Below, piece after piece: positions 5,101 to 30,043 of a stretch of 32,000 nt of DNA. The notes under the pieces are model-generated. The model saw only the letters and a list, made by a program, of their open reading frames with translations, did not search any database and was not told where the DNA came from. The translations under genes were made by a program, and so were the position numbers. The DNA is from Nostoc punctiforme PCC 73102 (lineage in GTDB: Bacteria; Cyanobacteriota; Cyanobacteriia; Cyanobacteriales; Nostocaceae): positions 3,720,001 through 3,752,000 of the forward strand of contig NC_010628.1 in the NCBI RefSeq assembly GCF_000020025.1, given 5' to 3'. Positions within the stretch are counted from its first letter, which is position 1, and the number at the start of each line of letters is the position of its first letter.

Positions 5101-8100
5101 ACTATGCTCTCAAACAAAGGCATACTCCGTGGTACTTCACTCCAACCCTGAATTTCCACCAGTGGAGTATAAGAGTATTGCTCACACTCCACCTGTTGCG
5201 CCTGTAATTCCTTCAACCAAGGCAACAAATTCATCTCTGCTGGGACAGACACTCTTACTGGCAAAGTATTAATGAACAGCCCCACCATCGATTCCACCCC
5301 CATCAAGTCTGGTGGGCGACCGGAAACAGTAGCACCAAAAACTACATCAGTTTCCCCACTATAACGAGATAGTAAAATCGACCATGCTCCCTGCACGAGA
5401 TTGTTGAGCGTTAATTGATGGTTTTTGGCAAAAGCTTGCAGAGCGGCTGTAACTGGCTCAGATAAATGAATTTCTTGTTCGCTGTAACCAGATTGTTGCT
5501 GGCGATTAGTCAGTGGTTTATCCACCATTAAAGGAGTTGGCGCAGTAAAACCTTGAAGCTTTTGCTGCCAAAATCTCTGTGCTTCTGCTAAATCCTGCTG
5601 CTGTAACCAGGCGATGTAGTTTTTGTAAGCTGCGATCAGTTCAAAACGGAAACTTTTCCCTTCACAGATGGCCTCATACAACTCAAATACTTCTTTAAGA
5701 ACCAAAGGTAAAGACCAGCCATCAAGTAGTAAATGATGATGACTCCAAATAAATTGATATCTATCTGCATCCAATTGGATGAGATTCAGGCGTATCAATG
5801 GGGCAAGTGAAAGTTGAAAACCGCGCCGCGCTTCAGATTCTAAGAAAATATTTAACTTATTTTGCTGTTCAAGAGCAGACAATTCTTGCCAATCATCAAT
5901 TACCAAAGGTAGCTTCACTTGACGATACACTACTTGGAGGGGCTGGTGATGATTTTCCCAGATGAACCCAGTACGGAATACCGAATGTCTGTCTATCACT
6001 TGCTGCCAAGCTTGTTCAAAGTTTTCGATTTTTAAGTTGCCCTTGAATGTACAACTCAACTGCTCAAAATACGCTCCCGATTCAGGGGCATACAAACTAT
6101 GAAACAGCATCCCTTGTTGCATGGGTGACAGGGGATAAATATCTTCCAGATTTTGATATTTAATTTTGCTTAATTGGACATCAAGTTGTGCTTGAGTCAA
6201 CTTAGCTAAGGGGAAATCGCTAGGAGTATAACCCCCAGCATCAGGAGATAAACAATGAGCTATTAATGCTTGCAATGTTTGAATAAACTCATTCGCCAGG
6301 TTTTCAACTGTGGATTGTTGATGGATATTGCTGCTATAAGTCCAATCTATTTGCAGTTGACCTTCAGAAATTAATCCACCAATATCTAATAAGTGAACTC
6401 GGCAACTTTGCAAACTTTGGCTTGCTCCCACAGGTTCATCAGCTAATTTAAATCCAGATGATGTATCTAAAGCTTGGTCAAATTGTCCCAAATAGTTGAA
6501 GCTAATCTGCGCTGGCAAAGATGTCTGTAATTGAGTAGTGATTTCCTTATTTGGATGCAGATAACGCAGTACACCATAACCAATTCCTTTGTGGGGAATA
6601 TGTCGCAACTGTTCTTTAACTAACTTTAATGTCTTACCTAAATTGTCAGTGGCTTCCAGTTCTAACAACACAGGGAAAATCGTGGTAAACCAACCAATAG
6701 TTCGGGATAAATCTACATCGTCAAAAATGTCTTCCCGCCCATGTCCTTCCAAATTTAATCGCACTAAGTTAGAGCCAGTCCATTTACTGATAACCTGCGC
6801 TAAAGCAGTCAGCAATATATCATTAATTTGGGTATTATAAACTCTTGGGACTTCTTGTAAGAGTGCTTGGGTTTCTAGCGCATTCAATGATACTGACACC
6901 AACCGTGCAGATGTGACAATATTCGACCCATTCACATAATCTACAGGTATCGGGAGAACTGGTTTTTGGGAACAGTTGAGCCAGTATATGAGTTCTTCTG
7001 TAAGTGCATCTGATTTTGCATACTCACTCAACCTTTGCGCCCAATATTGATAGGATGTGGTTTTGGTAGATAGCCCAATTGCTTCACCACGACTTAGCTG
7101 CTGATAACCTGTCTGCAAATCATCTAATAATATTCGCCACGAAACACCATCTACAGCTAGGTGATGTATTATCAACAGTAATCGACTAGATTGGTTAGTA
7201 CCAAACTTAATCAGTAATGCTTTGAACAATGGCCCAGTAGAGAGGTTGAGTTGGACTTGGAGTTCGCCGCCAATATTTTCCAAGGCTGCTAATTGCTCTT
7301 GTGGTGAAATGGTGGATAAATCTACCACACTCAAAGACACTGCTTCTTCAAAATCTGCGTTTACTTGCTGCCAACTTTCTTCCTTTAGCGTAAACCGCAA
7401 GCGTAGTGCATCATGATGCACCAGTAATTGCTGTAAGACCCGCTTTAAGAGTTCTGGTTTTAGGTCTGATGGTACTGAGAGCAGGACTGATTGATTATAG
7501 TGATGGGGTTCGGGCTGATTTTGCTCAAAAAACCAGTGTTGAATCGGTGTTAGGGGTACAAGTCCTGTGACTAAACCTTGTTGTGCTTGGATTTTTCTGG
7601 TTGTACCTGCCACTGCTGCTAACAGAGCAATTGTCTGATGTTCAAACAACTGCTTGGGACTTAAATGAACTCCGGCGAGATTGGCTCTGGCAATAATTTG
7701 TAGACTGAGGATAGAATCGCCACCGAGTTCAAAGAAGTTATCATGAATCCCTATTTGTTCTACTCCTAGCACCTCTGCCCAAATTTTACTAAGCATCTGT
7801 TCTATCGGTGTTCGGGGAGCTACAAACCTGTTTTCCAGTTCCCGCCCTGATTCTGGTGCTTTTAAGCCACTGCGGTCTACTTTGCCGTTAGATGTCAGTG
7901 GTAAGACATCCAAAAACACAAAGGCTGCCGGAATCATGTACTGGGGTAGCTTTGAACCCAGGAATTGCCGCAGCTCATTGACGCTGATAGCAAGCTGTTG
8001 ATTGAGTACCAAGTAAGCAACTAAGCGTTTATCACCAGGGTTATCAACTCTAGCTAGAACTACAGTTGCTTGAACATCGGGATGTTGACTAATTGCGGCT

Positions 8101-11100
8101 TCAATTTCTCCCAATTCGATGCGGAAACCGCGAATTTTCACCTGGTTGTCGATGCGTCCGAGATATTCTAAGTCACCATTGCCAAGATATCTGGCTAAAT
8201 CCCCAGTTTTGTACAATCGGGCATTTGGGTCATCATTAAAGGGGTGGGCAACAAATACTTTCGATGTCAACTCTTCTCGATTGAGATAACCACGGGCTAA
8301 CCCTGCACCCCCCACGTACATTTCCCCAGGAACGCCCATCGGCAGTAATTGCCTATTTTGATCTAAGATATATACCTGTAAATCTGGGATAGGACAACCA
8401 ATCACACTGCCAGCATTGCTGCTCAAATCTGCGATGGTGATGGGACGATAAGTTACATGAACGGTGGTTTCGGTAATTCCATACATATTCACCAACTGCG
8501 GCAATTTGTCTCCGTGGCGCTCAAACCACGGTTTTAAGCTTTGAAGTTCTAATGCTTCGCCGCCAAAGATTACCCATCGCAGAGCTAAACTTTCTGATGT
8601 CTTTATAAGTTCCTCAGTTTGTATCAACTGCCCGAAGGCTGAAGGTGTTTGATTTAAGACTGTTACTTGTTGTTTGCAAAGTAATTGATAGAAGTCAGCC
8701 GGAGAACGACTTATCCAGTAGGGTACAATTACTAATCGCCCACCTTTGATTAATGCTCCCCAAATTTCCCACACTGAAAAGTCAAAGGCGAAGGAGTGGA
8801 ACAGCGTCCATATATCGTCTTGATTGAAGTGAAACCATTCTTCTGTAGCAGTAAATAGCCGCACAATATTGGCGTGATTAATTAAGACACCTTTGGGTTT
8901 ACCTGTAGAGCCAGAGGTGTAAATGATGTAAGCGAGGTTGTCTGGTGTGGTAAGTCTTGGAGGGTTGTTTGCACTTGATTGAGCGATGAAGTCCCAATCG
9001 CTATCGATGCACAAAATTTGCGCTTGATTTTCGGGAAGATTTGGCAGTAGTTGCTGTTGGGTTATTAATACTTTGACTTGGGAATCTGCTAGGGTAAAGC
9101 TGAGTCGTTCTTGGGGGTAATTGGGGTCAAGCGGTACGTAAGCTCCTCCGGCTTTGAGAATTCCTAAGATGCCGATAAGCATTTCTATGGAACGTTCGAC
9201 ACAAATACCGACTAAGATATCTGCACTTACACCCAAACTTCGCAAGTGGTGGGCTAGTTGATTGGCTTTTGTGTTTAATTCTTGGTAAGTAAGTTGCTCG
9301 TTTTCATATACAATTGCGATCGCATCTGGGCTACGCTCTACCTGCAATTCAAATAACTCATGGATGCATTGATTTGGGAGTTCTTTGATTTGTGTGTTTT
9401 CGGATTCTTTGAGTAATTGATTTTGCTCGGTTTTTGTCAGTAGAGGTAATTTCCAAAGTCGTTGAGTTGGCTGGGTTGCAATTGCAGTAATTATTGTCTG
9501 CAAATGTCCTAGCATTCGGGTTATGGTGGCAACTTCAAAGCGGCTAGTGTCATAACTGATACTGATGGACAATTCCGAACCGGGAGCAGCTAGGAGTGTG
9601 AGAGGATAATTTGTTTGTTCTATGCAGTGAATATCAAAAATATCTAGGTTGCTATCCTGTTCTTGCATAGAAGCATCAACTGGATAATTTTCAAATACCA
9701 CAATGCTCTCAAATAGAGGCATTCCCCCTGGTATTTCGCTCCAACCTTGAATTTCTACTAGTGGAGTATAAGAGTATTGCTCAGATTCTACTTGTTGTGC
9801 TTGTAATTCTTTGAGCCAAGGTAATACTTCCACGTCTTCGGGAATAGTTATTCGCACTGGCAAGGTGTTGATAAATAATCCTACCATTGATTCTACCCCC
9901 AGTAGCTCTGGTGGACGACCAGAAACAGTCGCTCCAAAGACGATATCTGTTTGCCCACTGTAACGGGAGAGCAATAGCGCCCATGCTCCTTGGATGAGGT
10001 TGTTGAGCGTGAGTTTATGTTGCTTGGTGAATGTCTGGATGTTTGCGATCGCATCCCCACCAATCTGCATTTGCTGGGTGTTATAGTTTGACTGGTTCGT
10101 TCGCTTGCTTAATGGAATTTCAACTGTTAACGGCGTTGGTACACTAAACCCGTTTAATTTTTCTTGCCAAAATACTTTTGCTTGTTCTAAATCCTGTTTC
10201 TGTAACCAGGCGATGTAGTTCCTGTAAGGAAGACTCGGTTTGTCGTTGAAATTTCTCCCTTGACAAATGGCTTCGTAAAACTCGAATACTTCCTTAAGAA
10301 CTAAAGGTAATGACCAGCCATCAAGCAATAAATGGTGGTGGCTCCAAACGAATTGATATATATCTGCATTCAATTGAATCAGATTCAGACGCATCAATGG
10401 TGCAAGTGAAAGTTGAAAGCCTTGCTGCTGCTCAGATTTGATAAAAATTTCTAGCTTATCTTGCTGTTCGCTAGGAGATAGTAAACGCCAGTCGTTAATT
10501 TCCAAAGGTAATTTTACCTGGCGATATACTACTTGTAGGGGCTGGTGATGATTTTCCCAAATAAAAGCTGTGCGGAAAATTGAATGCCTAGCGATAACTT
10601 GCTGCCAAGCTTGCTCAAAAGCTGGTAATTCTAAGTTGCCTTTTAAGGTACAACTTAACTGCTCAAAATATACTCCTGACTCTGGCTCATACACACTATG
10701 AAAAAGCATTCCTTCTTGCATGGGTGAGAGTGGATAAATATCTTCGAGATTTTGATATTTTATTTTGTCTAGTTCTGCATCAAGTTGCTTTTGGGTGAGT
10801 TGAGCTAAAGGAAAATCAGTAGGAGTGTAACCGCCAGCTTCAGGAGATAAACAATGAGCTATTAATGCTTGCAACGCCTGGATAAACTCTTGAGCTAGAT
10901 TTTCAATTGTGGTGTGTTGATGAACATTGTTGCTGTATGTCCAATTTATTTGCAATTGACCGCCGACAATTAATCCGTTAATCTCTAGTATATGACTGCG
11001 ATCACTATACAAACTTTGACTAGCCCCAGCAGATTCAGTTGCTAATTGAAAACTACCAGATGTACTCAAAGCTTGATCGAATTGTCCCAGATAATTGAAG

Positions 11101-14100
11101 CAAATCTCAGCTCGATGAGAAGGAGTAGATAAACTGGTGGCTTCTTTGCCAAGATAGCGCAGCAAGCCATAGCCAATCCCCTTGTGAGGAATCTGACGCA
11201 ACTGCTCTTTAATTGACTTAATAACATCCCCTTGATTATCTGTAACTCCCAGTTCTAACAACACCGGGAAAAGTGTTGTAAACCAACCGATAGTACGTGA
11301 TAAATCTACATCTGCAAAAATGTCTTCCCGCCCATGACCTTCCAACTCTAACAGCAGGGAGTTCGCACCAGCCCATTTACTCACAACCTGCACTAAAGCG
11401 GTTAACAATATATCATTAATTTGAGTGTTGTAAGCTTTTGGTACTTCTTGTAATAATGCTTGGGTTTGTGTATCATTCAATGATACTGATACAGTGGCAG
11501 CAGATGCAGCAGTGTTAGCACCTTTTTCAAAGTCCACTGGTAAACGCAACACTGGTGTTGTAGATTGTTTTTGCCAACAAGCTAATTCTTCTGATAAAGC
11601 TTCTGATTGTGCATATTCACTCAGTTGTTGCGCCCAATATTGAAAAGATGTTGTTTTGGCGGGTAGCTGAATCGTTTCACCACGGCTAAGTTGCTGATAA
11701 CCTGTCTGTAAGTCATCTAACAAAATCCGCCAAGAAACTCCATCAACCACTAAGTGGTGAATAATAATTAGTAATCGGCTTGGTTGGTCAATTCCCAGAG
11801 ACAATAAGGCAACGCGGATAATCGGTCCTGTTGATAGATTTAAGCTAGCCTGTAGTTGAGAAGCAGTAGCTTCAATAGCATTTTTTTGTTCTGTCTGTGT
11901 AACTGTAGATAAATCTATCTGCAAGAAAGGTACTATCTTATCCGGGACAGTGTGAGTTTGTTTCCAAGATTCACCTGGAATATAACGTAAACGCAATGTA
12001 TCGTGGTGTAGCAACAATTGCTGCAAAACGCGCTTTAAAATTTCTGGGTCTAAGTCTGATGGTACTGTCAACAGAACTGATTGGTTAAAATGGTGCGGCT
12101 CAGGCTGATTTTGCTCAAAAAACCAGTGTTGAATTGGTGTTAATGGCACTGTTCCTGTGACTAAACCTTGTTCTGCCTGGATGTTTTTAGTTGTGCCCGC
12201 TACTGCTGCTAACTCGGCAATGGTTTGATGCCCAAATAATTGTTTGGGACTTAAATTCAGTCCCGCCTGATTAGCTCTGGCAATAATTTGCAAACTGAGG
12301 ATGGAATCGCCGCCGAGTTCAAAGAAGTTATCGTGAATGCCTATTTGTTTGACTCCTAAAACCTCTGCCCAAATATCGACTAATATCTTTTCTGTAGGAG
12401 TTCTGGGGGCAATAAAGTTAACTTCTAGTTCAGGACGTGAATCAGGAGCAGGTAAGGCACGACGGTCTACTTTGCCGTTAGGCGTGAGAGGCAAGGCTTC
12501 TAAGAACACAAACGCTGAAGGCAACATATACTCAGGTAGTTTTGCCTTGAGGAATTGCCGTAAGTCGCTAATAGTTGGTGTTTGTTCTTGATTGCATACT
12601 AAATAAGCAACTAAGCGTTTACTTCGACTTACCTCGGCTGCGCTCGGCACGAGTCGCTCAGTACAAGTATCGCCGGGAATATCTTCTCTTGCTATGACTA
12701 CAGTTCCTTGCACATTTGGGTATTGGCTCAGTACTGCCTCTATCTCGCCCAATTCGATGCGGAAGCCGCGAATTTTTACTTGGTTGTCGATGCGTCCCAA
12801 ATACTCAATATTTCCATCAGCTGAATAACGCGCTAAATCCCCAGTTTTATACAGACGACTCCCGGATTTATCAAAGGGATTAGTAATAAATTTTTCTTGG
12901 GTCAAATCAGGTCGATTCAGGTAGCCTCGTGCTAAACCAACACCACCGATGTGCAACTCACCAGGTACACCAATTGGCACTGGTTGCAGATATTGGTCTA
13001 GTAAATAGGTTTGCACATTCTGTAGCGATCGCCCAATGAATATTTTTGACCCAAAACTAGACAAATTATACACTGTTGCTTCAACAGTGGTTTCTGTAGG
13101 CCCGTAAGCGTTGATTAATTGTGGGTATTGGCCAACATACTCCTGCCAAATTTTTAACTGTGCTGGTAGCGCTTGCTCTCCACCAATAATTACCAGGCGA
13201 ATAGAATTGGGTAATCTTAAATTGCTGTTAGCTAATTCTGAAGTTAGTTGATGCCAGTATGCTGTCGGCAAATCTAAAACTGTGAGTTCCCAATCTTGGC
13301 ATCTTTGCACAAATGTACTGATGGAAGTTAGCATTTCATCGGTGCGTAGCACTAGCGTTGCACCACAACTCAGACAGGGATAAATTTCTTCGGCGGCGAC
13401 ATCAAAACTAATCGATGCAAATTGTAAAATGCGTTGACAATAATTGATGCCATATTCAATTATTGCTGCTTGGATAAAATTTACTAAGGAATAATGTTGA
13501 ATCATTACTCCTTTGGGTTGACCTGTAGAACCTGATGTATAAATTACATAAGCAAGATTTGCTGATGTTACTTGGCTGATACAATTATCATTACTCAAAT
13601 GAGCATAGGCTTGCCAATCGCTATCTAAACTAACCACCTGCGCCCCATGTTCTGGTAGTCCCTTAACTAATTGCTGTTGCGTCACCAATACAGATACTTG
13701 GGAATCTGTCAACATATAAGCTAGTCGCTCTTGAGGATAATCAGGGTCAAGAGGTATATAAGCCCCACCCGCTTTGAGAATCCCCAACATTCCCACCACC
13801 ATGTCTAAGGAACGTTGCACACAAATACCAACTAACACCTCTGGGCCTACACCTAGACTTTGTAGGTAGTGTCCTAGTTGATTAGCTCGATTATTCAATT
13901 CGCGGTAGCTAAGTTTTTGGTCTGCAAACACTACTGCTACTGCATCTGGAGTCAGTTTTACTTGATTCTCAAATAACTCATGAATGCAAAGGTTTTCTGG
14001 ATAGTCTTTTTGCGTATCATTCCATTCCAACAATAATTTTTGCTCTTCTGCTGTTGTGAGCAAGGGCAATTGAGAAACGGGCATTTTTGGATAAGAAACA

Positions 14101-15494
14101 ATATTCTCTAATAAGGTTTGGAAATGACTCGCCATTCGCTCAATGGTAGTAGCATCAAACAAATCAGTATTATATTCCCAGGATGTTACTAATCCATTCC
14201 CAGCCTTGTGAATAGATAAAGTTAAATCAAACGCTGATGTTGAGCTTTCGACGGTAAATGAACTCAAAGTTAAGCCAGGAAGTTCCATTGCTGTCATTGG
14301 AGCATTATTCAGCACAAACATCACCTGAAATAGGGGTGTATGGCTTAAATCTCGTACTGGTTGTAATGCTTCTACCAACAGTTCAAACGGCAAATCTTGA
14401 TGAGCATAAGCCGCCGCCGTCACTTTTTGGACTTTCCTTAGTAATTCTTGAAAACTAGGATTACCTGATACATCAGTACGCAGGACTAAAGTGTTGATAA
14501 AAAAACCAATCAATCCTTCGATTTCACTACGATTACGGTTAGCAGTAGGGGAACCGACTAAAATATCCGTCTGTCCTGTATAACGGTAAAGTAAGATGTC
14601 AAACGCTGTTAACAGCGTCATAAACAACGTCACACCTTCTTGACGGCTCAGTAATTCCAGGGCTTGGGTTAATTCTAAAGGAAGTAAGAAGAATTGATGC
14701 GCTCCCCACATAGTTTGTACTTTCGGCCGGGGTCGGTCAGTAAGTAATTCTAATAAAGCTGGTGCTAGCGCGAGTTGTTTTCGCCAGTAATTGATTTGAG
14801 ATTCTTTAACATCACCTTGCAAAAATTGGCGCTGCCACACTGCAAAGTCAACATATTGAATGGCAAGTTCTGGTAAGGGTGAGACTTTACCTTGAGAAAA
14901 AGCAGTGTAAAGTTCTGCGGTTTCTTGGATAAAGATACCCATTGACCAGCCATCAGAAATAATGTGGTGCATACAGAACAGTAATACATGTTCTGTCTCG
15001 GATAGTGTCAACAATGAAGCCCGGATTAGAAATTCCCTAGCTAGGTCAAACTGGTACTTTGCTTCTGCTGTTGCCAGTTTTTGAGTTTCAATTTCTTGCT
15101 GATTTGCTGGCAAATGTTGTAAGTCTATTACTGTCATTGTCCAAGAATCTACAGGGCGGATAATTTGCACTGCTTGTCCATCTTGGGTAATAAAGTTAGC
15201 GCGTAAGGTTTCGTGGCGACGGATGATTTCGCTGAGGCTTTGTTGTAGCGCTACTGTATTTAGCTGACCTTGGAGGCGTACTGCGCCGGGTATATTATAA
15301 GCAGAACCGTTTGGCTCTAATTGGTCGAGGAACCATAAACGCTGTTGAGCAAAGGATAGGGGGAGAGATTTAAGTTCTTGATTGCGAAGAATTATTTGTT
15401 TAGGTGTAGCTTCTTGTTGTTGTTTTAGTTGCTTTAGTAGCAATTGTTGTTTCTGTGGAGAAAGATTTGCAAGTTGTTTTAATAAGTCACTCAT
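2118..15494 (-). CDS. Non-ribosomal peptide synthetase, three modules, terminating (C-A-T-E / C-A-T-E / C-A-T-TE), 4458 aa
   Basis: This is a single uninterrupted ORF. It has three HHxxxDG condensation motifs, two HHLxVDGVSW epimerase motifs, three SGSTGxPKG adenylation cores, three GG(D/H)S carrier motifs and a C-terminal GHSLGG thioesterase. The start is ATG at 15492-15494 and the stop is TAA at 2118-2120. Confidence 0.97.
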   Translation of the reverse strand: MSDLLKQLANLSPQKQQLLLKQLKQQQEATPKQIILRNQELKSLPLSFAQQRLWFLDQLEPNGSAYNIPGAVRLQGQLNTVALQQSLSEIIRRHETLRANFITQDGQAVQIIRPVDSWTMTVIDLQHLPANQQEIETQKLATAEAKYQFDLAREFLIRASLLTLSETEHVLLFCMHHIISDGWSMGIFIQETAELYTAFSQGKVSPLPELAIQYVDFAVWQRQFLQGDVKESQINYWRKQLALAPALLELLTDRPRPKVQTMWGAHQFFLLPLELTQALELLSRQEGVTLFMTLLTAFDILLYRYTGQTDILVGSPTANRNRSEIEGLIGFFINTLVLRTDVSGNPSFQELLRKVQKVTAAAYAHQDLPFELLVEALQPVRDLSHTPLFQVMFVLNNAPMTAMELPGLTLSSFTVESSTSAFDLTLSIHKAGNGLVTSWEYNTDLFDATTIERMASHFQTLLENIVSYPKMPVSQLPLLTTAEEQKLLLEWNDTQKDYPENLCIHELFENQVKLTPDAVAVVFADQKLSYRELNNRANQLGHYLQSLGVGPEVLVGICVQRSLDMVVGMLGILKAGGAYIPLDPDYPQERLAYMLTDSQVSVLVTQQQLVKGLPEHGAQVVSLDSDWQAYAHLSNDNCISQVTSANLAYVIYTSGSTGQPKGVMIQHYSLVNFIQAAIIEYGINYCQRILQFASISFDVAAEEIYPCLSCGATLVLRTDEMLTSISTFVQRCQDWELTVLDLPTAYWHQLTSELANSNLRLPNSIRLVIIGGEQALPAQLKIWQEYVGQYPQLINAYGPTETTVEATVYNLSSFGSKIFIGRSLQNVQTYLLDQYLQPVPIGVPGELHIGGVGLARGYLNRPDLTQEKFITNPFDKSGSRLYKTGDLARYSADGNIEYLGRIDNQVKIRGFRIELGEIEAVLSQYPNVQGTVVIAREDIPGDTCTERLVPSAAEVSRSKRLVAYLVCNQEQTPTISDLRQFLKAKLPEYMLPSAFVFLEALPLTPNGKVDRRALPAPDSRPELEVNFIAPRTPTEKILVDIWAEVLGVKQIGIHDNFFELGGDSILSLQIIARANQAGLNLSPKQLFGHQTIAELAAVAGTTKNIQAEQGLVTGTVPLTPIQHWFFEQNQPEPHHFNQSVLLTVPSDLDPEILKRVLQQLLLHHDTLRLRYIPGESWKQTHTVPDKIVPFLQIDLSTVTQTEQKNAIEATASQLQASLNLSTGPIIRVALLSLGIDQPSRLLIIIHHLVVDGVSWRILLDDLQTGYQQLSRGETIQLPAKTTSFQYWAQQLSEYAQSEALSEELACWQKQSTTPVLRLPVDFEKGANTAASAATVSVSLNDTQTQALLQEVPKAYNTQINDILLTALVQVVSKWAGANSLLLELEGHGREDIFADVDLSRTIGWFTTLFPVLLELGVTDNQGDVIKSIKEQLRQIPHKGIGYGLLRYLGKEATSLSTPSHRAEICFNYLGQFDQALSTSGSFQLATESAGASQSLYSDRSHILEINGLIVGGQLQINWTYSNNVHQHTTIENLAQEFIQALQALIAHCLSPEAGGYTPTDFPLAQLTQKQLDAELDKIKYQNLEDIYPLSPMQEGMLFHSVYEPESGVYFEQLSCTLKGNLELPAFEQAWQQVIARHSIFRTAFIWENHHQPLQVVYRQVKLPLEINDWRLLSPSEQQDKLEIFIKSEQQQGFQLSLAPLMRLNLIQLNADIYQFVWSHHHLLLDGWSLPLVLKEVFEFYEAICQGRNFNDKPSLPYRNYIAWLQKQDLEQAKVFWQEKLNGFSVPTPLTVEIPLSKRTNQSNYNTQQMQIGGDAIANIQTFTKQHKLTLNNLIQGAWALLLSRYSGQTDIVFGATVSGRPPELLGVESMVGLFINTLPVRITIPEDVEVLPWLKELQAQQVESEQYSYTPLVEIQGWSEIPGGMPLFESIVVFENYPVDASMQEQDSNLDIFDIHCIEQTNYPLTLLAAPGSELSISISYDTSRFEVATITRMLGHLQTIITAIATQPTQRLWKLPLLTKTEQNQLLKESENTQIKELPNQCIHELFELQVERSPDAIAIVYENEQLTYQELNTKANQLAHHLRSLGVSADILVGICVERSIEMLIGILGILKAGGAYVPLDPNYPQERLSFTLADSQVKVLITQQQLLPNLPENQAQILCIDSDWDFIAQSSANNPPRLTTPDNLAYIIYTSGSTGKPKGVLINHANIVRLFTATEEWFHFNQDDIWTLFHSFAFDFSVWEIWGALIKGGRLVIVPYWISRSPADFYQLLCKQQVTVLNQTPSAFGQLIQTEELIKTSESLALRWVIFGGEALELQSLKPWFERHGDKLPQLVNMYGITETTVHVTYRPITIADLSSNAGSVIGCPIPDLQVYILDQNRQLLPMGVPGEMYVGGAGLARGYLNREELTSKVFVAHPFNDDPNARLYKTGDLARYLGNGDLEYLGRIDNQVKIRGFRIELGEIEAAISQHPDVQATVVLARVDNPGDKRLVAYLVLNQQLAISVNELRQFLGSKLPQYMIPAAFVFLDVLPLTSNGKVDRSGLKAPESGRELENRFVAPRTPIEQMLSKIWAEVLGVEQIGIHDNFFELGGDSILSLQIIARANLAGVHLSPKQLFEHQTIALLAAVAGTTRKIQAQQGLVTGLVPLTPIQHWFFEQNQPEPHHYNQSVLLSVPSDLKPELLKRVLQQLLVHHDALRLRFTLKEESWQQVNADFEEAVSLSVVDLSTISPQEQLAALENIGGELQVQLNLSTGPLFKALLIKFGTNQSSRLLLIIHHLAVDGVSWRILLDDLQTGYQQLSRGEAIGLSTKTTSYQYWAQRLSEYAKSDALTEELIYWLNCSQKPVLPIPVDYVNGSNIVTSARLVSVSLNALETQALLQEVPRVYNTQINDILLTALAQVISKWTGSNLVRLNLEGHGREDIFDDVDLSRTIGWFTTIFPVLLELEATDNLGKTLKLVKEQLRHIPHKGIGYGVLRYLHPNKEITTQLQTSLPAQISFNYLGQFDQALDTSSGFKLADEPVGASQSLQSCRVHLLDIGGLISEGQLQIDWTYSSNIHQQSTVENLANEFIQTLQALIAHCLSPDAGGYTPSDFPLAKLTQAQLDVQLSKIKYQNLEDIYPLSPMQQGMLFHSLYAPESGAYFEQLSCTFKGNLKIENFEQAWQQVIDRHSVFRTGFIWENHHQPLQVVYRQVKLPLVIDDWQELSALEQQNKLNIFLESEARRGFQLSLAPLIRLNLIQLDADRYQFIWSHHHLLLDGWSLPLVLKEVFELYEAICEGKSFRFELIAAYKNYIAWLQQQDLAEAQRFWQQKLQGFTAPTPLMVDKPLTNRQQQSGYSEQEIHLSEPVTAALQAFAKNHQLTLNNLVQGAWSILLSRYSGETDVVFGATVSGRPPDLMGVESMVGLFINTLPVRVSVPAEMNLLPWLKELQAQQVECEQYSYTPLVEIQGWSEVPRSMPLFESIVVFENYPVDAAVQQQNGSLDVSNVQAGMEITDYPLTVTSVPGLRLLLSINYDSNRFDADAITRMLGHFQTLLEGMAANQEQQLWELPLLTASEQQQLLWEWNDTQKDYPQNQCVHELFAAQVKLTPDAVAVVFEDQQLTYRELNLRANQLAHYLQTLGVKPDVLVGICVERSLEMVVGILAIVKAGGAYVPLDPNYPSERLSYMLLDSQVSVLLTQQRLIEQLPQHQAKVVYLDSDWSLITQHSETNLVNHTTSKNLVYVIYTSGSTGQPKGVMVTHQNLVNAYLAWEDAYQLRSLCTSHLQMASFSFDVFSGDVVRSLCSGGKLVICPRELLLEPEKLYHLMQIQSIDCAEFVPAVLRNLIQYLERTEQDLSFMKLLIVGSDSWYIKDYQQFQRFISNETRLINSYGVTEATIDSSYFETAAVSLLSDGLVPIGEPFANTQIYILDQYQKPVPIGISGELYIGGSGVSCGYLNRPELTQEKFIANPFSQQESARLYKTGDLARYLSDGNIEYLERSDRQVKLRGFRIELGEIEAILSQHPQLQAVTVIVREDIKGDKRLVAYFVPYQEQTPTIIEMRSFLKSSLPDYMIPSAFVLLEFLPLTPNGKIDRRALPVPDINSLTIDTSFVPPLDIVEQQLTQIWSEILNIYPIGVKDDFFDLGGHSLLAVQLMAKIEQQFGKVLPLAVLFQNSTIENLGSILRQPMDTLSWSSLVPIQSNGYKRPFFCIPGAGGNSIYLYNLAHHLGRDQPFYALQALGLDGESTPHTSVEEMATHYIQAIQSVQTEGPYFLGGHSLGGMVAFEMACQLQKLGHKVALLALLDCGAPENIDNIDTVQQNVEIDDADWLNEIGFLFEQFYGKSLEISYEILQSLTPDTQLQYFQERLQMANLLPAGIGIKQLRGLMQVYKTNMQIVYTTQNIYENKITCFISSETENVSSENSESLEDTRLDWDNFSTKPLDIYVVPGNHATMLNEPNVQVLAEKLRTCIENAQVVN
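2121..2975 (-). other. Type I thioesterase (TE) release domain
   Basis: Contains PFFCIPGAGGNSIY and the nucleophile elbow GGHSLGG (Ser codon 2721-2723). The candidate Asp is in LLDCGAP and the candidate His in VPGNHATML. Confidence 0.9.
3010..3215 (-). other. Peptidyl carrier domain T3
   Basis: FFDLGGHSLLAVQLMAKI; Ser codon at 3111-3113. Confidence 0.9.
3546..3553. repeat. HIP1 palindrome GCGATCGC
   Basis: Exact 8-mer read in the sequence. Confidence 0.95.
4148..4155. repeat. HIP1 palindrome GCGATCGC
   Basis: Exact 8-mer read in the sequence. Confidence 0.95.
4850..6137 (-). other. Condensation domain C3, DCL-type
   Basis: Contains YPLSPMQQGMLFHS...YFEQ and SHHHLLLDGWS (HHH codons 5733-5741). 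It follows E2. Confidence 0.88.
6205..7582 (-). other. Epimerization domain E2
   Basis: Contains PLTPIQHWFFEQ, HHLAVDGVSWRILLDD (HH codons 7161-7166), EGHGRED and FNYLGQFD. Confidence 0.9.
7620..7820 (-). other. Peptidyl carrier domain T2 (epimerase-partner type)
   Basis: FFELGGDSILSLQIIARANLAGV; Ser codon at 7713-7715. Confidence 0.9.
7870..9365 (-). other. Adenylation domain A2, Thr-specific code
   Basis: The hand-read code is D-F-W-N-I-G-M-V-H-K (FDFSVWE, VLNQTPS, VIFGGEA, NMYGITETTVH; Lys codon 7881-7883). This is the canonical Thr signature. The junction PGD|KRLVAY at 8040/8041 is uninterrupted. Confidence 0.88.
9316..9323. repeat. HIP1 palindrome GCGATCGC
   Basis: Exact 8-mer. It encodes the AIA of PDAIAIVYE at the start of the A domain. 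Confidence 0.95.
9450..10745 (-). other. Condensation domain C2, DCL-type
   Basis: Contains YPLSPMQEGMLFHS...YFEQ and SHHHLLLDGWS (HHH codons 10332-10340). It directly follows an E domain. Confidence 0.88.
10045..10052. repeat. HIP1 palindrome GCGATCGC
   Basis: Exact 8-mer read in the sequence. Confidence 0.95.
10830..12170 (-). other. Epimerization domain E1
   Basis: Contains PLTPIQHWFFEQ, HHLVVDGVSWRILLDD (HH codons 11754-11759), EGHGRED and FNYLGQFD. Confidence 0.9.
12215..12410 (-). other. Peptidyl carrier domain T1 (epimerase-partner type)
   Basis: FFELGGDSILSLQIIARANQAGL; the phosphopantetheine Ser codon is at 12303-12305. Confidence 0.9.
12621..12668 (-). repeat. 48-nt composite mini-repeat inserted in frame (adds TCTERLVPSAAEVSRS): a 24-nt element with a related 24-nt element nested in it
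   Basis: The coding strand reads ACTTGTACTGAGCGA[CTCGTGCCGAGCGCAGCCGAGGTA]AGTCGAAGT. The outer 24 nt differ from the 27195-27218 copy at one position. The bracketed 24 nt align to the outer family at about 17 of 23 positions when shifted by one base. Confidence 0.75.
13025..13032. repeat. HIP1 palindrome GCGATCGC
   Basis: Exact 8-mer read in the sequence. Confidence 0.95.
14075..15365 (-). other. Condensation domain C1, LCL-type (accepts the PKS-bound intermediate)
   Basis: Contains LSFAQQRLWFLDQLEP and the active site CMHHIISDGWS (HH codons 14964-14969, residues 176-177). A Gln/Lys-rich 40-aa N-terminal linker precedes it. Boundaries are approximate. Confidence 0.85.
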
Positions 15495-18600: not shown

Positions 18601-20248
18601 CCATATTTACATATTGGGAACCTTGACCGGGAAACAAAAAAGTTACTGGTCTTTGGGTTTTTTCTTGGAAAGTTGTTAAGTACTGGCTCGGCTCTGATGC
18701 TTTGAGTCCAATTATTGCTGACTCTAAATTGCGACACACTAACATCCGCCGATGATTATAAGTTCTGCGACCTACTTGCAGGGTATGTACAACATCAGCT
18801 AAGTTAATATCTGGATGTTGTTGCAAATATTCAGCCAAATTTACGGTCATTGTTTCCAAAGCTGAATCAGTTTTGGCCGAAACAATCAACAGATGATATT
18901 TTCTCCCCTGCTCCTCTGCTCCCCTATCCTCCTGCTCTAACAAAGGGCTTTCTTCGAGAATCAGATGGGCGTTGGTTCCGCCAATTCCAAAGGAGCTAAC
19001 ACCCGACCGCCGGGGAGTATTAACAGAATCCCACTTTGATAACTTAGTATTAACGTAAAAGGGACTGTTGGCAAAGTCAATTTTAGAATTAGGTTGCTCA
19101 AAGTTCAAACTAGCTGGAATCACTTTGTGTTGCAGTGCCAGAGTCGTTTTAATCAACCCCGCAACCCCCGCAGCTGCATCTAAATGTCCCATATTTGTTT
19201 TGAGGGAACCAATCGCACAGAAACCTTTTTTAGCAGTACTAGTACGGAAAGCCTGAGTTAAAGCTTCTAGTTCAATAGGGTCGCCCAAAGGTGTAGCTGT
19301 GCCATGTGCTTCAATGTAGGTGATTGTCTCAGCTGCAATCTCAGATGTAGCTTGAGCCGCAAGAATCACATTTGCTTGCCCTTCTACTCCCGGAGCAGTG
19401 TAACCAATTTTTTGCGCTCCATCATTATTGATTGCCGAGCCTTTAATTACAGCATAAATGCGATCGCCATCTTTGATCGCATTTTCTAAACGTTTGAGTA
19501 CCACAATCCCCAAACCATTACCGCCAACTGCTCCTTTAGCTTTGGCATCAAAAGTCCGACAATGACCATCAACGGAAACAATGCCCCCTTCTTGATAAAT
19601 ATAGCCACTCATTTGTGGTAATCGAATAGAAACACCACCAGCCAGAGCCATTTCACAATCGCCACTTAACAACCCTTGACAAGCTAAGTGAACTGCCACT
19701 AAAGAGGAAGAGCAAGCAGTTTGAACAGTAATACTTGCACCAGAAAGGTCTAATTTATATGAAACAAGGGTGCTGAGATAATCACCATTGGCAATTAAAA
19801 TCGGTGAAACTCCCACAGCTTCGATTAAGTCACTGTTTGGATAGATGTTATCTAGTAAATAGTCATTTTTACCGACGGCAGCGTAAACACCAATAGGACT
19901 TTTATAAGTTTGTGGATTGTAGGCAGCGTTTTCTAAAGCTTCATCAGCACACTCTAAAAACAGACGGTGTTGGGGGTTTAAGATTTCTGCTTCTCTGGGG
20001 GTATAGCCAAAGAAAGCTGCGTCAAACATCTCAATGTCATTTAATATCGCCCCAGCTTTGACATAGTTGGATTGACTTAATAAAGCTGGTTCAATCCCCG
20101 CAGCCAGCAATTCTTCATCGGAGAAAAATTTTACAGATTCGACACCATCTTGCAGATTACGCCAAAATTCTTCAATATTTTTAGCTCCGGGAAACCGACC
20201 GGCTAGGCCAATAATGGCTACTTCTAAACCTGTTTTTTCACTACTCAT
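15632..20248 (-). CDS. Type I modular polyketide synthase, one module (KS-AT-KR-ACP), 1538 aa
   Basis: Contains the KS triad motifs TACSSSL, EAHGTATPLGDPIE and NMGHLDAAAG. The AT has GHSIGE and HAFHS. The KR has TGGLGKIS and YSAANNFLD. The carrier has LGGNSL. The ATG at 20246-20248 overlaps the upstream stop. Confidence 0.97.
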   Translation of the reverse strand: MSSEKTGLEVAIIGLAGRFPGAKNIEEFWRNLQDGVESVKFFSDEELLAAGIEPALLSQSNYVKAGAILNDIEMFDAAFFGYTPREAEILNPQHRLFLECADEALENAAYNPQTYKSPIGVYAAVGKNDYLLDNIYPNSDLIEAVGVSPILIANGDYLSTLVSYKLDLSGASITVQTACSSSLVAVHLACQGLLSGDCEMALAGGVSIRLPQMSGYIYQEGGIVSVDGHCRTFDAKAKGAVGGNGLGIVVLKRLENAIKDGDRIYAVIKGSAINNDGAQKIGYTAPGVEGQANVILAAQATSEIAAETITYIEAHGTATPLGDPIELEALTQAFRTSTAKKGFCAIGSLKTNMGHLDAAAGVAGLIKTTLALQHKVIPASLNFEQPNSKIDFANSPFYVNTKLSKWDSVNTPRRSGVSSFGIGGTNAHLILEESPLLEQEDRGAEEQGRKYHLLIVSAKTDSALETMTVNLAEYLQQHPDINLADVVHTLQVGRRTYNHRRMLVCRNLESAIIGLKASEPSQYLTTFQEKTQRPVTFLFPGQGSQYVNMARELYEVEPTFQTEFDHCAQLLLINFGLDLHRLLYPEASVQETAQAQLQQTHLTQPALFVIEYALAKLWMSWGIKPQAMIGHSIGEYVAACLAGVFSLEDGLTLVITRAKLMQELPKGAMLAVPLPESEIKPLLNEQLSLAAINAPSQCVVSGLADAIATLQNQLTKKGVDCRLLHTSHAFHSTMMEPICAALTEQIAEIQLHSPQIPYISNVTGTWITPSVATDPNYWTKHLRQPVLFNQGVEELLQESDRVFLEVGPGRTLSTFIQQHSDKNTGITALASLRHPRDESSDVAFLQNTLGQLWLAGVEVDWSGLYIHERRQRLALPTYPFERQRYWLDAPNSAEIPSSPQLLPNKKLDISKWLYIPSWKRTVSPSRRHSSPGCTLVFSDDCGLGLGIVRQLELEGETVITLKVGSEFHQISERLYSLNPKNHQDYDTLLQELHRQGLQPQKIIHLWSVTENYTPELEIAEFDKAQETGFYSLLFLAQTLAKHHVIDELQITVVSNNVQQVTGVDIVCPAKATILGPVKVIPQEYPNITCRNIDIIIPKSSQDKLVEQIVAELTCDNLDKVIAYRGYHRLVQTFEPVQWDESVVGTPRLREKGVYLITGGLGKISLLLAEHLAKTVQGNLILIGRSPFPAKDSWEQWLVNHDHTDSISQKIQKLIEIESFGGKVLIINADVSNQQQMQAAIDLAKEKYGRVNGVIHAVAIADSFHAIEQTSYQECLQQFQPKIHGLLVLEKIFQNQKLDFCLLLSSLSSILGGLGFVAYSAANNFLDIFAHKYNPNNSIPWISINWDAWQFDSEPKITGNLAELALNPQEGIKIFQYIFSQPDVNQWVVSTGNLQARIDQWIQLKILGNRKDLKSASSITHHARPNLRNAYIAPSNEIEKCLVNIWQDLLGIEPIGIEDNFFELGGNSLTAIQIISRLREIYLIDLPVNDFFETPKIISLTETIFQAQIANADSEILAQALADLAKLSDEDVQKLLAAE
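15735..15955 (-). other. Acyl carrier domain (PCP-like signature)
   Basis: FFELGGNSLTAIQIISRL; Ser codon at 15848-15850. An acidic C-terminal tail follows (SDEDVQKLLAAE). Confidence 0.88.
16210..17535 (-). other. Ketoreductase (KR) domain with N-terminal structural subdomain
   Basis: The Rossmann motif YLITGGLGKIS is at about 16766-16792. The catalytic Tyr in YSAANNFLD has its codon at 16295-16297. No DH (HxxxGxxxxP), ER or methyltransferase motif occurs between the AT and KR. I could not assign the stereochemical type: the LDD position reads ADS and there is no A-type Trp. Confidence 0.85.
16470..16477. repeat. HIP1 palindrome GCGATCGC
   Basis: Exact 8-mer read in the sequence. Confidence 0.95.
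17760..18646 (-). other. Acyltransferase (AT) domain, malonyl-CoA type
   Basis: Contains FLFPGQGSQY and GHSIGE (Ser codon 18353-18355). The HAFH motif at 18056-18067 is the malonyl-specific signature, as opposed to YASH for methylmalonyl. Confidence 0.85.
18126..18133. repeat. HIP1 palindrome GCGATCGC
   Basis: Exact 8-mer read in the sequence. Confidence 0.95.
18953..20233 (-). other. Ketosynthase (KS) domain
   Basis: The active-site Cys codon is at 19712-19714 (TACSSSL, residue 179). Both His motifs are present, and the domain ends at GGTNAHLILEE. Confidence 0.92.
19460..19467. repeat. HIP1 palindrome GCGATCGC
   Basis: Exact 8-mer read in the sequence. Confidence 0.95.
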
Positions 20249-29969: not shown

Positions 29970-29978
29970 TTCAATGGA

Positions 29979-29983
29979 CTCCT
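29979..29983 (-). promoter_or_regulatory. Shine-Dalgarno sequence (AGGAG) of the 3242-aa NRPS gene
   Basis: The minus strand reads GTAGGAGTCCATTGAA-ATG, with AGGAG 9 nt upstream of the ATG at 29969. Confidence 0.65.
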
Positions 29984-30043
29984 ACTTTTTTTTTGAACAA
30001 AACTCAATACACCGTTATTTTTTTTACCAGTCCCTTATTTTGT

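What the first reader, a model, noticed from the sequence alone, without database searches (positions are those of the whole stretch)
12621..12668. Self-nested mini-repeat: the same 24-nt element carrying a second related 24-nt element, still in frame (16 extra residues)
In the first A domain of the terminating NRPS, the same PGD|KRLVAY junction holds 48 extra nt: ACTTGTACTGAGCGA[CTCGTGCCGAGCGCAGCCGAGGTA]AGTCGAAGT. Removing the bracketed 24 nt regenerates the element seen at 27195-27218 with a single substitution. The bracketed part aligns to the same family (consensus roughly CTyGTrCyGAGCGmAGyCGArGT). This is the pattern expected if one element inserted into a resident copy of its own family. 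Both steps added multiples of 24 nt, so a 4458-aa ORF stayed open. Nesting has been described for cyanobacterial small dispersed repeats, but a nested pair inside an NRPS catalytic domain is a striking natural insertion-tolerance experiment.
Basis: partly seen in the sequence, partly recalled or inferred. Interest (0 to 1): 0.75.

Follow-up and report, generated by a model that had tools for sequence, protein, structure and literature searches.

The report
Nested 24-nt repeats in NRPS loop
A 48-base in-frame insert in a Nostoc punctiforme peptide-synthetase gene is one tiny mobile repeat sitting inside another, a kind of element and nesting already described for this genome, lodged in a floppy surface loop where the enzyme can probably tolerate it.

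Summary
Window 12621-12668 (- strand) reads ACTTGTACTGAGCG | ACTCGTGCCGAGCGCAGCCGAGGT | AAGTCGAAGT. It adds 16 residues between PGD and KRLVAY in the first A domain of the 4458-aa NRPS. Both 24-mers belong to one dispersed family, ACTYGTRCYGAGCGMAGYCGARGT. A truncated genome scan gave 130 copies in 120 loci, mostly Nostoc. Many sit in heptamer arrays, and 26 are nested at the same central site.

The source is Nostoc punctiforme, the genome in which Elhai et al. (2008) described small dispersed repeats (SDRs) and their nesting. The Calothrix NIES-22 ortholog has an empty site, so the 48 nt is acquired, not an old loop. AlphaFold puts it in the only disordered segment of the domain, a beta-hairpin turn.

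It is unresolved whether the inner unit inserted here or the pair arrived already nested. The same outer/inner composite recurs at seven other loci, and at the same junction of an unrelated A domain.

Extras:
- A third A domain carries a 21-nt SDR5-type insert at the same loop.
- A 98%-identical sister strain differs by exactly 24 nt inside the second A-domain element.
- Identical 24-mers occur in Bacteroidota.

Verdict: real, correctly read, an instance of a known phenomenon.

The parts
12621..12668 (-). 48-nt nested composite (16 aa, TCTERLVPSAAEVSRS) between PGD and KRLVAY of A domain 1 of the terminating NRPS
   Evidence: identical in sister strain L172; absent from the Calothrix ortholog
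12655..12668 (-). Outer element, 5' part ACTTGTACTGAGCG (nt 1-14 of the unit)
   Evidence: matches the commonest family variant exactly
12631..12654 (-). Inner element ACTCGTGCCGAGCGCAGCCGAGGT, of the GCC..GGT subfamily.
   Evidence: It is 2 substitutions from ACTTGTGCCGAGCGAAGCCGAGGT (4 copies in the scan) and 2 from the inner unit of L166.
12621..12630 (-). Outer element, 3' part AAGTCGAAGT (nt 15-24 of the unit)
27195..27218 (-). Solo element ACTTGTACTGAGCGAAGTCAAAGT (TCTERSQS) at the same junction of A domain 1 of ORF 20241-29969. The sister strain carries 48 nt here.
20796..20816 (-). 21-nt SDR5-type element GCCTGCGGTGGGCTTTGCCAA (ACGGLCQ) at the equivalent junction of A domain 3 of ORF 20241-29969
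   Evidence: It is absent from the Calothrix and Nostoc MG11 orthologs. Family copies elsewhere sit as GCG|...|ATCGC, i.e. between nt 3 and 4 of HIP1, as PMC4390886 describes for SDR5.
2118..15494 (-). Host gene: NRPS of 4458 aa, with 5 condensation-type stretches, 3 A, 3 T and a C-terminal thioesterase
20241..29969 (-). Upstream NRPS of 3242 aa (3 modules) carrying the solo element and the SDR5-type element
8013..8042 (-). Empty junction (NPGD|KRLVAY, GGTGAT|AAACGC) in A domain 2 of the terminating NRPS. Further empty junctions are at 3414-3443, 23976-24005 and 31898-31927.

Best explanation
The 48 nt is a nested pair of cyanobacterial small dispersed repeats (SDRs): protein-less 24-nt units that are copied precisely into new sites by an unknown trans-acting mechanism.

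**Shown**
- The unit is a fixed 24 nt and has unrelated flanks at each locus.
- It is followed by A in 94% of loci.
- It often lies between units of heptamer arrays.
- It is itself a target. New units land in the centre of resident ones (GAGCG|AAG), which produces nests two to three deep.
- The N. punctiforme lineage acquired the pair after it split from the Calothrix NIES-22 lineage and before it split from a 98%-identical sister strain.

**Inferred**
- The insert persists because it costs little. It is a multiple of three. The consensus unit has no stop codon in 5 of 6 frames, and the composite in 4 of 6. It also lengthens a solvent-exposed beta-hairpin turn of the A domain's C-terminal subdomain rather than a catalytic motif.
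- No function is implied.

**Unresolved**
- Whether the inner unit inserted into the resident outer unit in this gene, or the composite arrived already nested.
For: **Family and dispersal**
- 130 pattern matches in 120 loci, scan truncated; 95 of the loci are cyanobacterial, mostly Nostoc.
- 35 of 111 distinct sites lie inside period-7 arrays, and the +1 base is A in 104 of 111.

**Nesting**
- 26 of 130 copies sit inside a host core GAGCG(N)|x|AGYCGA. Seven have the same outer/inner types as the window. Triple nests occur in L047 and L066.

**Acquired, not ancestral**
- The Calothrix ortholog reads VLGD|KRLVAY with no insert.
- 86 of 95 homologous A-domain junctions have the canonical spacing.
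- The sister strain L172 has the identical 48 nt.

**Tolerated site**
- AlphaFold mean pLDDT is 90.3. The only segment below 50 is residues 472-486, which is the insert, between strands 458-466 and 490-497.
- The fold is a standard A domain: 4D56, TM 0.96 normalised by the target's length.

**Open frames:**

**Same junction occupied elsewhere**
- L081 (twice), L102, L161, L165, L166.
- By two further elements in this window.

**Ongoing dynamics**
- The only multi-codon indel in 24.6 kb between the two strains is 24 nt inside the D1 element.

**Source genome:** N. punctiforme.
Against: - No mobilising enzyme or intermediate is known or was found, so mobility rests on presence/absence and dispersal only.
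- The hairpin is weak. DNA folding energies are no better than shuffles. Only one base pair (9-22) covaries.
- The exact inner variant was not found outside N. punctiforme and its sister. Copies are 1-3 substitutions away.
- No strain with an outer-only B1 site was found, so the two-step order at this site is unobserved.
- Tolerance by the enzyme is inferred from a model and from retention in two strains, not measured.
- The SDR family number in Elhai's nomenclature could not be checked, because the paper is not held.
Confidence: 0.88

Rival explanations
1. Two-step in situ. An ACT..AGT unit inserted at PGD|KRLVAY of B1. Later a GCC..GGT unit inserted into its central GAGCG|AAG site in this same gene.
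For: - A solo outer-type unit sits at the same junction of D1 in the same cluster.
- GCC..GGT units can exist solo in heptamer arrays (L040, L070), so they are independent elements.
- Resident units are demonstrably hit at this site: 26 of 130 copies.
- The D1 element changed length by 24 nt between 98%-identical strains.
Against: - No genome with an outer-only B1 was found. The sister strain already has the full 48 nt.
- The outer unit is a perfect consensus copy, while the supposedly younger inner unit is 1-2 substitutions from its subfamily consensus.
- The extra 24 nt in the sister's D1 is not a canonical unit.
Confidence: 0.4
2. The pair arrived pre-nested. The 48-nt composite is itself a propagating unit and inserted in one step.
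For: - The same outer/inner combination occurs at five separate loci of Nostoc sp. NMS2 (L032, L063, L075, L094, L116) with different heptamer flanks, and in L097 and L105.
- All five GCC-type copies sampled in NMS2 are nested in ACT-type hosts. Only 1 of 18 nested ACT-type units sits in an ACT-type host.
- L166 has a 42/48-identical composite at the same junction of an A domain whose flanks are only about 69% identical.
Against: A strong preference of GCC-type units for ACT-type loops would give the same picture. The exact window variant was not seen elsewhere.
Confidence: 0.35
3. Gene conversion. The insert was copied into B1 from another A domain that already carried it, through the highly conserved flanking A8 and KRLVAY DNA.
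For: - Many A domains carry an element at exactly this junction.
- Divergence between the sister strains is patchy, with a raised patch around the D1 element.
- The last 24 nt of the sister's D1 insert are 23/24 identical to the last 24 nt of the B1 composite.
Against: B1 and D1 flanks in the window are only about 75% identical next to the insert. No donor was identified. Informative sites do not point to B1, B2 or D2 as the donor for D1.
Confidence: 0.12
4. Ancient structural loop of this A-domain lineage, or a local duplication/slippage product, or chance similarity.
For: Some A domains do have long loops here (P0002, P0117, P0120). Nested composites contain direct repeats 24 nt apart that could slip.
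Against: - The Calothrix ortholog has an empty site.
- The inner unit carries the diagnostic C9/G22 pair of a distinct subfamily found elsewhere.
- Tandem duplication gives abab, not aabb.
- 0 matches were expected by chance.
Confidence: 0.02

Closest known systems
Small dispersed repeats (SDR1-SDR8) of Nostoc punctiforme and relatives (Elhai, Kato, Cousins, Lindblad, Costa, Genome Res 2008;18:1484)
   Same: - Same genome.
- Units of 21-27 nt.
- Dispersed in Nostocaceae.
- Embedded in tandem heptamers.
- Nested in one another.
- Precise insertion with no long target duplication.
These features are recalled from the abstract. SDR5's insertion into HIP1 is confirmed by citing papers.
   Different: - I could not read the paper, so I cannot give the SDR number of the ACTTGT... 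family or say whether these NRPS copies were listed.
- Identical copies outside cyanobacteria, recurrent use of one A-domain loop, and the 24-nt strain polymorphism are not, to my knowledge, part of that description.
REP / REPIN elements mobilised by RAYT (IS200/IS605-type Y1) transposases
   Same: Very short, non-coding, highly repeated and thought to be mobilised in trans. SDRs are named as a possible analogue in PMC3116915.
   Different: - REPs are extragenic, strongly palindromic and usually paired in inverted orientation.
- They are often GTAG/CGTC-tagged and flank a RAYT gene.
- Here about 30% of copies lie in long open frames, folding is no better than shuffles, there is no tag, and there are no inverted pairs.
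MITEs (e.g. Nezha in cyanobacteria)
   Same: Non-autonomous dispersed elements.
   Different: MITEs are 70-300 bp with 15-30-bp terminal inverted repeats and target-site duplications. The unit here is 24 nt, has no terminal inverted repeat, and has at most a 1-nt (A) duplication.
HIP1 (GCGATCGC) and heptameric tandem repeats of heterocystous cyanobacteria
   Same: Both are part of the same repeat landscape. HIP1 is the target of the SDR5-type unit seen in A domain 3. Heptamer arrays are the commonest landing site of the 24-mer.
   Different: They are targets or contexts, not the element itself.

Membership tests
Cyanobacterial SDR (Elhai 2008) | Unit length 21-27 nt with sharp, reproducible ends | tested here: met
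   All 130 copies are 24 nt with unrelated flanks. The D3 unit is 21 nt.
Cyanobacterial SDR (Elhai 2008) | Many dispersed copies in Nostoc punctiforme and relatives | tested here: met
   120 loci, scan truncated, 95 cyanobacterial and mostly Nostoc. The window is N. punctiforme. The copy number within N. punctiforme itself was not countable with these tools.
Cyanobacterial SDR (Elhai 2008) | Frequently embedded within tandem heptamer repeats | tested here: met
   35 of 111 distinct sites restore a period-7 array across the junction. Examples are ATTGGGC, ATCCAAA, ATTACGA and ATTGGTC.
Cyanobacterial SDR (Elhai 2008) | Units nested inside other units | tested here: met
   26 of 130 are nested at GAGCG(N)|x|AGYCGA. 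Triple nests occur in L047 and L066.
Cyanobacterial SDR (Elhai 2008) | Presence/absence between orthologous sites (mobility) | tested here: met
   The B1 site is empty in Calothrix NIES-22. The D3 sites are empty in Calothrix and Nostoc MG11. There is a 24-nt indel at D1 between 98%-identical strains.
Cyanobacterial SDR (Elhai 2008) | Conserved hairpin supported by compensatory changes (claimed for SDR4/5/6) | tested here: inconclusive
   Pair 9-22 covaries: T-A in 111 copies, C-G in 19, none mixed. But only one pair varies on both sides, and folding energy is no better than shuffles.
Cyanobacterial SDR (Elhai 2008) | Match to one of the eight published consensus sequences | not testable with these tools
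   The paper is not held, and no held paper prints the sequences.
SDR5 (for the 21-nt unit at 20796-20816) | Inserted between nt 3 and 4 of HIP1 (GCG|ATCGC) | tested here: met
   Seven family copies in other loci are flanked gcg|...|atcgc. The window copy is flanked GCG|...|ATCATC, a degenerate HIP1. The rule is quoted from PMC4390886.
REP/REPIN-RAYT | Extragenic, strongly palindromic, in inverted pairs, with a GTAG/CGTC tag | tested here: not met
   39 of 130 copies lie in open stretches of 250 codons or more. Fold z-scores are +0.6 to -0.5. No tag or inverted pairing is seen in the flanks.
MITE | Terminal inverted repeats, target-site duplication, 70-300 bp | tested here: not met
   The unit is 24 nt, has no terminal inverted repeat, and shows only a conserved A after the element.
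Conserved A-domain structural loop | Present in orthologs and in most homologs at this position | tested here: not met
   It is absent from the Calothrix ortholog and from 86 of 95 homologous junctions.

The most novel reading that the evidence does not exclude
The ACTTGTACTGAGCGAAGTCGAAGT unit may not be a cyanobacterial curiosity but a cross-phylum 24-nt mobile element.

- Identical copies occur in isolate genomes of Bacteroidota: Algoriphagus halophytocola, Thalassobellus citreus, Crocinitomix catalasitica and Cecembia lonarensis.
- They also occur in MAGs of Chloroflexota, Ignavibacteria and candidate phyla, and in viral contigs.
- These copies again sit in heptamer-like repeats and again nest two to three deep.

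That would imply a conserved, horizontally spread mobilising machinery that nobody has identified.

A corollary concerns NRPS genes. One beta-hairpin turn of the A domain acts as a recurrent landing pad. Nested units create direct repeats 24 nt apart, and these generate in-frame length polymorphism between strains.
Probability: 0.35. Interest if true: 0.6.

Novelty: new member of a known kind. Interest (0 to 1): 0.35.

Why it matters
**For the finding as given, modest.**
- It is a clean, well-documented instance of known SDR nesting, now with an empty orthologous site and a structural rationale for why it survives in a 4458-aa ORF.

**Practical uses.**
- Three of seven A domains in this cluster, and A domains in at least five other cyanobacterial loci, carry 7-16 extra residues at the same hairpin turn. 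That marks the turn as a naturally validated permissive site for tags or loop insertions in NRPS engineering.
- Such inserts should be masked when A domains are aligned or specificity is predicted.

**Wider question.**
- How a 24-nt sequence is copied precisely, and why it is identical in Cyanobacteria and Bacteroidota, remains open. It is the part worth pursuing.

Tried and rejected
1. **Reading Elhai et al. 2008** by DOI, PMC id and PubMed id. It is not held. The SDR number is therefore unassigned, and the description of SDR nesting is from memory plus two citing papers.
2. **Literature search** for the DNA or the encoded peptides. No relevant paper holds them; the single DNA-string hit is an unrelated cell-biology paper.
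3. **Protein search with the B1 A domain.** The best hit was 60% identical and the N. punctiforme protein itself was not returned. Long NRPS proteins seem under-sampled by that tool, so it says nothing about close orthologs. An exact look-up of the 4458-aa product also failed.
4. **Logan contigs carrying the identical PKS.** All are too short to reach the B1 or D1 junctions.
5. **Plasmid BLAST with the 48-mer.** It gave only three Nostoc plasmid hits (one full-length composite at 83%) and noise. It was not useful for counting copies in N. punctiforme.
6. **Metagenome scan** for 'element 3' end + KRLVAY'. 27 of 30 hits were chance or unrelated. Three were informative.
7. **Hairpin hypothesis.** The minimum-energy structure (1-4:21-24, 7-9:16-18) is contradicted by 26 A.C and 19 C.A copies. 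An alternative (7-9:22-24, 13-14:19-20) fits better but rests on one covarying pair.
8. **Looking for the donor** of the divergent patch around D1 in the sister strain among B1, B2 and D2. None fits.
9. **Rejected outright:** ancient loop, tandem duplication, chance.
Full report
**1. The observation.**
On the - strand, window 12621-12668 reads ACTTGTACTGAGCGACTCGTGCCGAGCGCAGCCGAGGTAAGTCGAAGT. It lies in ORF 2118-15494(-), 4458 aa. That ORF has five condensation-type stretches, three A domains, three T domains and a C-terminal thioesterase. The insert encodes TCTERLVPSAAEVSRS between PGD and KRLVAY of the first A domain.

Window 27195-27218(-) is ACTTGTACTGAGCGAAGTCAAAGT (TCTERSQS). It sits at the same junction of the first A domain of ORF 20241-29969(-). 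MAFFT aligns the two regions with a single 24-nt gap directly after GAGCG. Neither 24-mer is expected by chance in the window.

There is one refinement. The boundary is ambiguous by one A. In the family's register the inner unit is ACTCGTGCCGAGCGCAGCCGAGGT (12631-12654), 18/24 identical to the outer unit. The outer unit is read in frame 0 (TCTE..SRS). The inner unit is read in frame +1 (LVPSAAEV). Both frames are open.

**2. What the 24-mers are.**
Ninety-five loci are cyanobacterial, mostly Nostoc. Twelve variants occur. The commonest, with 55 copies, is exactly the window's outer unit.
- Flanks are unrelated between loci.
- 35 of 111 distinct sites lie between units of period-7 arrays such as ATTGGGC, ATCCAAA, ATTACGA and ATTGGTC.
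- The base after the element is A in 104 of 111 sites.
- 26 of 130 copies are themselves inside another unit, always at the central GAGCG(N)|x|AGYCGA site. Triple nests occur (L047, L066).

The features tested here (a short fixed unit, dispersal in Nostoc, heptamer context, nesting) are those I recall from the abstract of Elhai et al. (Genome Res 2008) for small dispersed repeats. That paper is not in the library. Two citing papers confirm the SDR5/HIP1 part. The window is Nostoc punctiforme itself: the PKS at 15632-20248 is 100% identical to WP_012409513 on an 8.23-Mb contig. That is the genome surveyed in the 2008 paper.

**3. The inner unit belongs to a recognisable subfamily.**
Positions 9 and 22 covary without exception in the scan: T/A in 111 copies, C/G in 19, none mixed. 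The inner unit has C9/G22 and G7, as does the ACTTGTGCCGAGCGAAGYCGAGGT subfamily. It differs from attested variants by T4C and by A15C, which is itself common in the family.

Its exact sequence was found only here and in the sister strain. The covariation fits a small stem (7-9 with 22-24, plus 13-14 with 19-20) better than the minimum-energy fold. It rests on one pair, however, and folding energies are no better than shuffles. I treat the hairpin as unproven.

**4. Acquired, not ancestral.**
Orthologous clusters were reached through the PKS: Calothrix brevissima NIES-22 (L138) and Nostoc sp. MG11 (L141), with the PKS 77-78% identical.
- The Calothrix B1 ortholog matches the window's flanks closely: AVLSQYSNVKETVVIAREDVLGD|KRLVAYLVFNQEQIPTVSELRQFIKAKLPEYMLPSAF.
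- Its site is empty, GGGGAT|AAGCG.
- Among 95 homologous A-domain junctions from the protein search, 86 have the canonical spacing.

**5. Why it survives.**
An AlphaFold model of residues 471-1030 is confident: mean pLDDT 90.3, pTM 0.88. The only segment below pLDDT 50 is residues 472-486, which is the insert. It lies between strands 458-466 and 490-497, a beta-hairpin turn in the C-terminal subdomain after the A8 motif. The fold is a standard A domain (4D56, 55% identity).

The unit is 24 nt wherever it occurs, coding or not. Its consensus lacks stops in five of six frames. Thirty-nine of 130 copies lie in open stretches of 250 codons or more, in all five open frames. Retention is therefore best explained by low cost. 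I found nothing suggesting a function.

**6. In situ or pre-nested?**

For two steps in place:
- A solo outer-type unit sits at the same junction in D1.
- GCC-type units can occur solo (L040, L070).
- Resident units are clearly hit at this site.

For arrival as a 48-nt unit:
- The same outer/inner combination is present at five loci of Nostoc sp. NMS2 with different flanks, and in two other Nostoc genomes.
- In the sample, GCC-type units are mostly nested in ACT-type hosts. ACT-type units almost never are (1 of 18).
- A metagenome scan for 'element end + KRLVAY' found L166. It has a 42/48-identical nested composite at PGD|KRLVAY of an A domain whose flanks are only about 69% identical to B1.

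Gene conversion between A domains is a third route. I put these at roughly 0.40, 0.35 and 0.12.

**7. A sister strain.**
The PKS cluster has a second member on an 8.33-Mb JGI contig. Its locus, L172, is 98.1% identical to the window over 24.6 kb.
- B1 carries the identical 48 nt.
- D3 carries the same 21-nt unit.
- D1 carries 48 nt (ACTTGTACTGAGC TTAGTCGAAGT AGCACAGCCGAGGT AAGTCGAAGT; TCTELSRSSTAEVSRS) where the window has 24.

This 24-nt difference is the only multi-codon indel in the whole 24.6 kb. The extra 24 nt is not a canonical unit. Its last 24 nt match the end of the B1 composite at 23 of 24 positions. It also lies in a patch of raised divergence, so recombination or slippage between the 24-nt-spaced direct repeats is as likely as a fresh insertion. 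Either way, the SDR-bearing loop is the fastest-changing length character of these genes.

**8. The junction is used repeatedly.**
In this window three of seven A domains are occupied: B1 (48 nt), D1 (24 nt) and D3. D3 has a 21-nt unit, GCCTGCGGTGGGCTTTGCCAA (20796-20816), which is absent from both orthologs. Relatives of that unit elsewhere sit as GCG|...|ATCGC. That is the SDR5 rule quoted in PMC4390886.

Elsewhere, single units sit at the same junction in L081 (twice), L102, L161 and L165. Other cyanobacterial A domains carry heptamer-encoded peptides there (P0002, P0053, P0120). The empty sites read GGTGAT|AAACGC. This matches only the weak target preferences of the family (G at -3, A at +1). 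I favour tolerance (survivorship) and conversion over strong targeting, but I did not test this.

**9. Comparison with known systems and novelty.**
The element works like, and passes every testable criterion for, an SDR. It fails the criteria for REP/REPIN and for MITEs (see the membership table). The finding is therefore a new, well-characterised instance of a known kind, in the very genome where that kind was defined.

Three things may be new: recurrent use of one A-domain turn, the 24-nt strain polymorphism, and identical units in 25 of 120 non-cyanobacterial loci. Those 25 include isolate Bacteroidota genomes, and 11 viral contigs also carry the unit. I could not check these three points against the 2008 paper.

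Noticed in passing
window 20796-20816 (-): A third A domain (D3) carries a 21-nt in-frame insert, GCCTGCGGTGGGCTTTGCCAA (ACGGLCQ), at the equivalent loop. It is absent from the Calothrix and Nostoc MG11 orthologs. Its relatives elsewhere are flanked GCG|...|ATCGC, i.e. they split HIP1 as described for SDR5.
   Followed up: yes
L172:3010-3057 versus window 27195-27218: A sister strain, 98.1% identical over 24.6 kb, has 48 nt where the window has the 24-nt solo element. This is the only multi-codon indel between the two strains in the cluster. The extra 24 nt is built of element 3'-half-like modules, not a canonical unit.
   Followed up: partly
L012, L015, L033, L049, L066, L072, L074, L077, L085, L131 and others (25 of 120 genome loci): Identical or near-identical 24-mers occur outside cyanobacteria, mostly in Bacteroidota. 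These include isolates (Algoriphagus halophytocola complete genome, Thalassobellus citreus, Crocinitomix catalasitica, Cecembia lonarensis). They also occur in Chloroflexota, Ignavibacteria, Saccharibacteria and Levyibacteriota MAGs. The copies again sit in heptamer-like repeats, and in a Saprospiraceae MAG they are nested three deep.
   Followed up: partly
L001-L011 (IMG/VR contigs): Eleven viral contigs carry the family. Two groups of related G+C-rich contigs hold the exact consensus at a conserved position (..gagta|unit|atgtcc..).
   Followed up: no
L166:1622-1669 (metagenome contig Ga0209906_100037): A second nested 48-nt composite (ACTTGTGCTGAGGG-ACTTGTGCCGAGCGGAGCCGAGGT-AAGTCGAAGT; TCAEGLVPSGAEVSRS) sits at PGD|KRLVAY of a non-orthologous A domain.
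   Followed up: yes
flanks of all family copies in L012-L131: The base immediately 3' of the unit is A in 104 of 111 distinct sites and never C or T. This is compatible with a target requirement or with a 1-nt duplication.
   Followed up: partly
window 24178-24198 (-): A domain D2 has three tandem CAAAATT heptamers encoding KIQNSK just before the LYKTGD motif. The Calothrix ortholog has ATDSQR there. This suggests a heptamer array inside coding sequence.
   Followed up: no
proteins P0002, P0053, P0120: Other cyanobacterial A domains carry 17-19 extra residues at the same loop. These are made of heptamer-encoded NPKSKIQN-type peptide, in P0053 together with a TCTEPSRS unit.
   Followed up: no
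window 20241-31999 versus L138 and L141: N. punctiforme has one more module (D1) than the Calothrix and Nostoc MG11 clusters. The C-terminal part of D1's A domain resembles that of B2. The MG11 counterpart of B1 is a different A domain. Divergence between the two N. punctiforme-like strains is strongly patchy. All of this suggests module-level recombination.
   Followed up: partly
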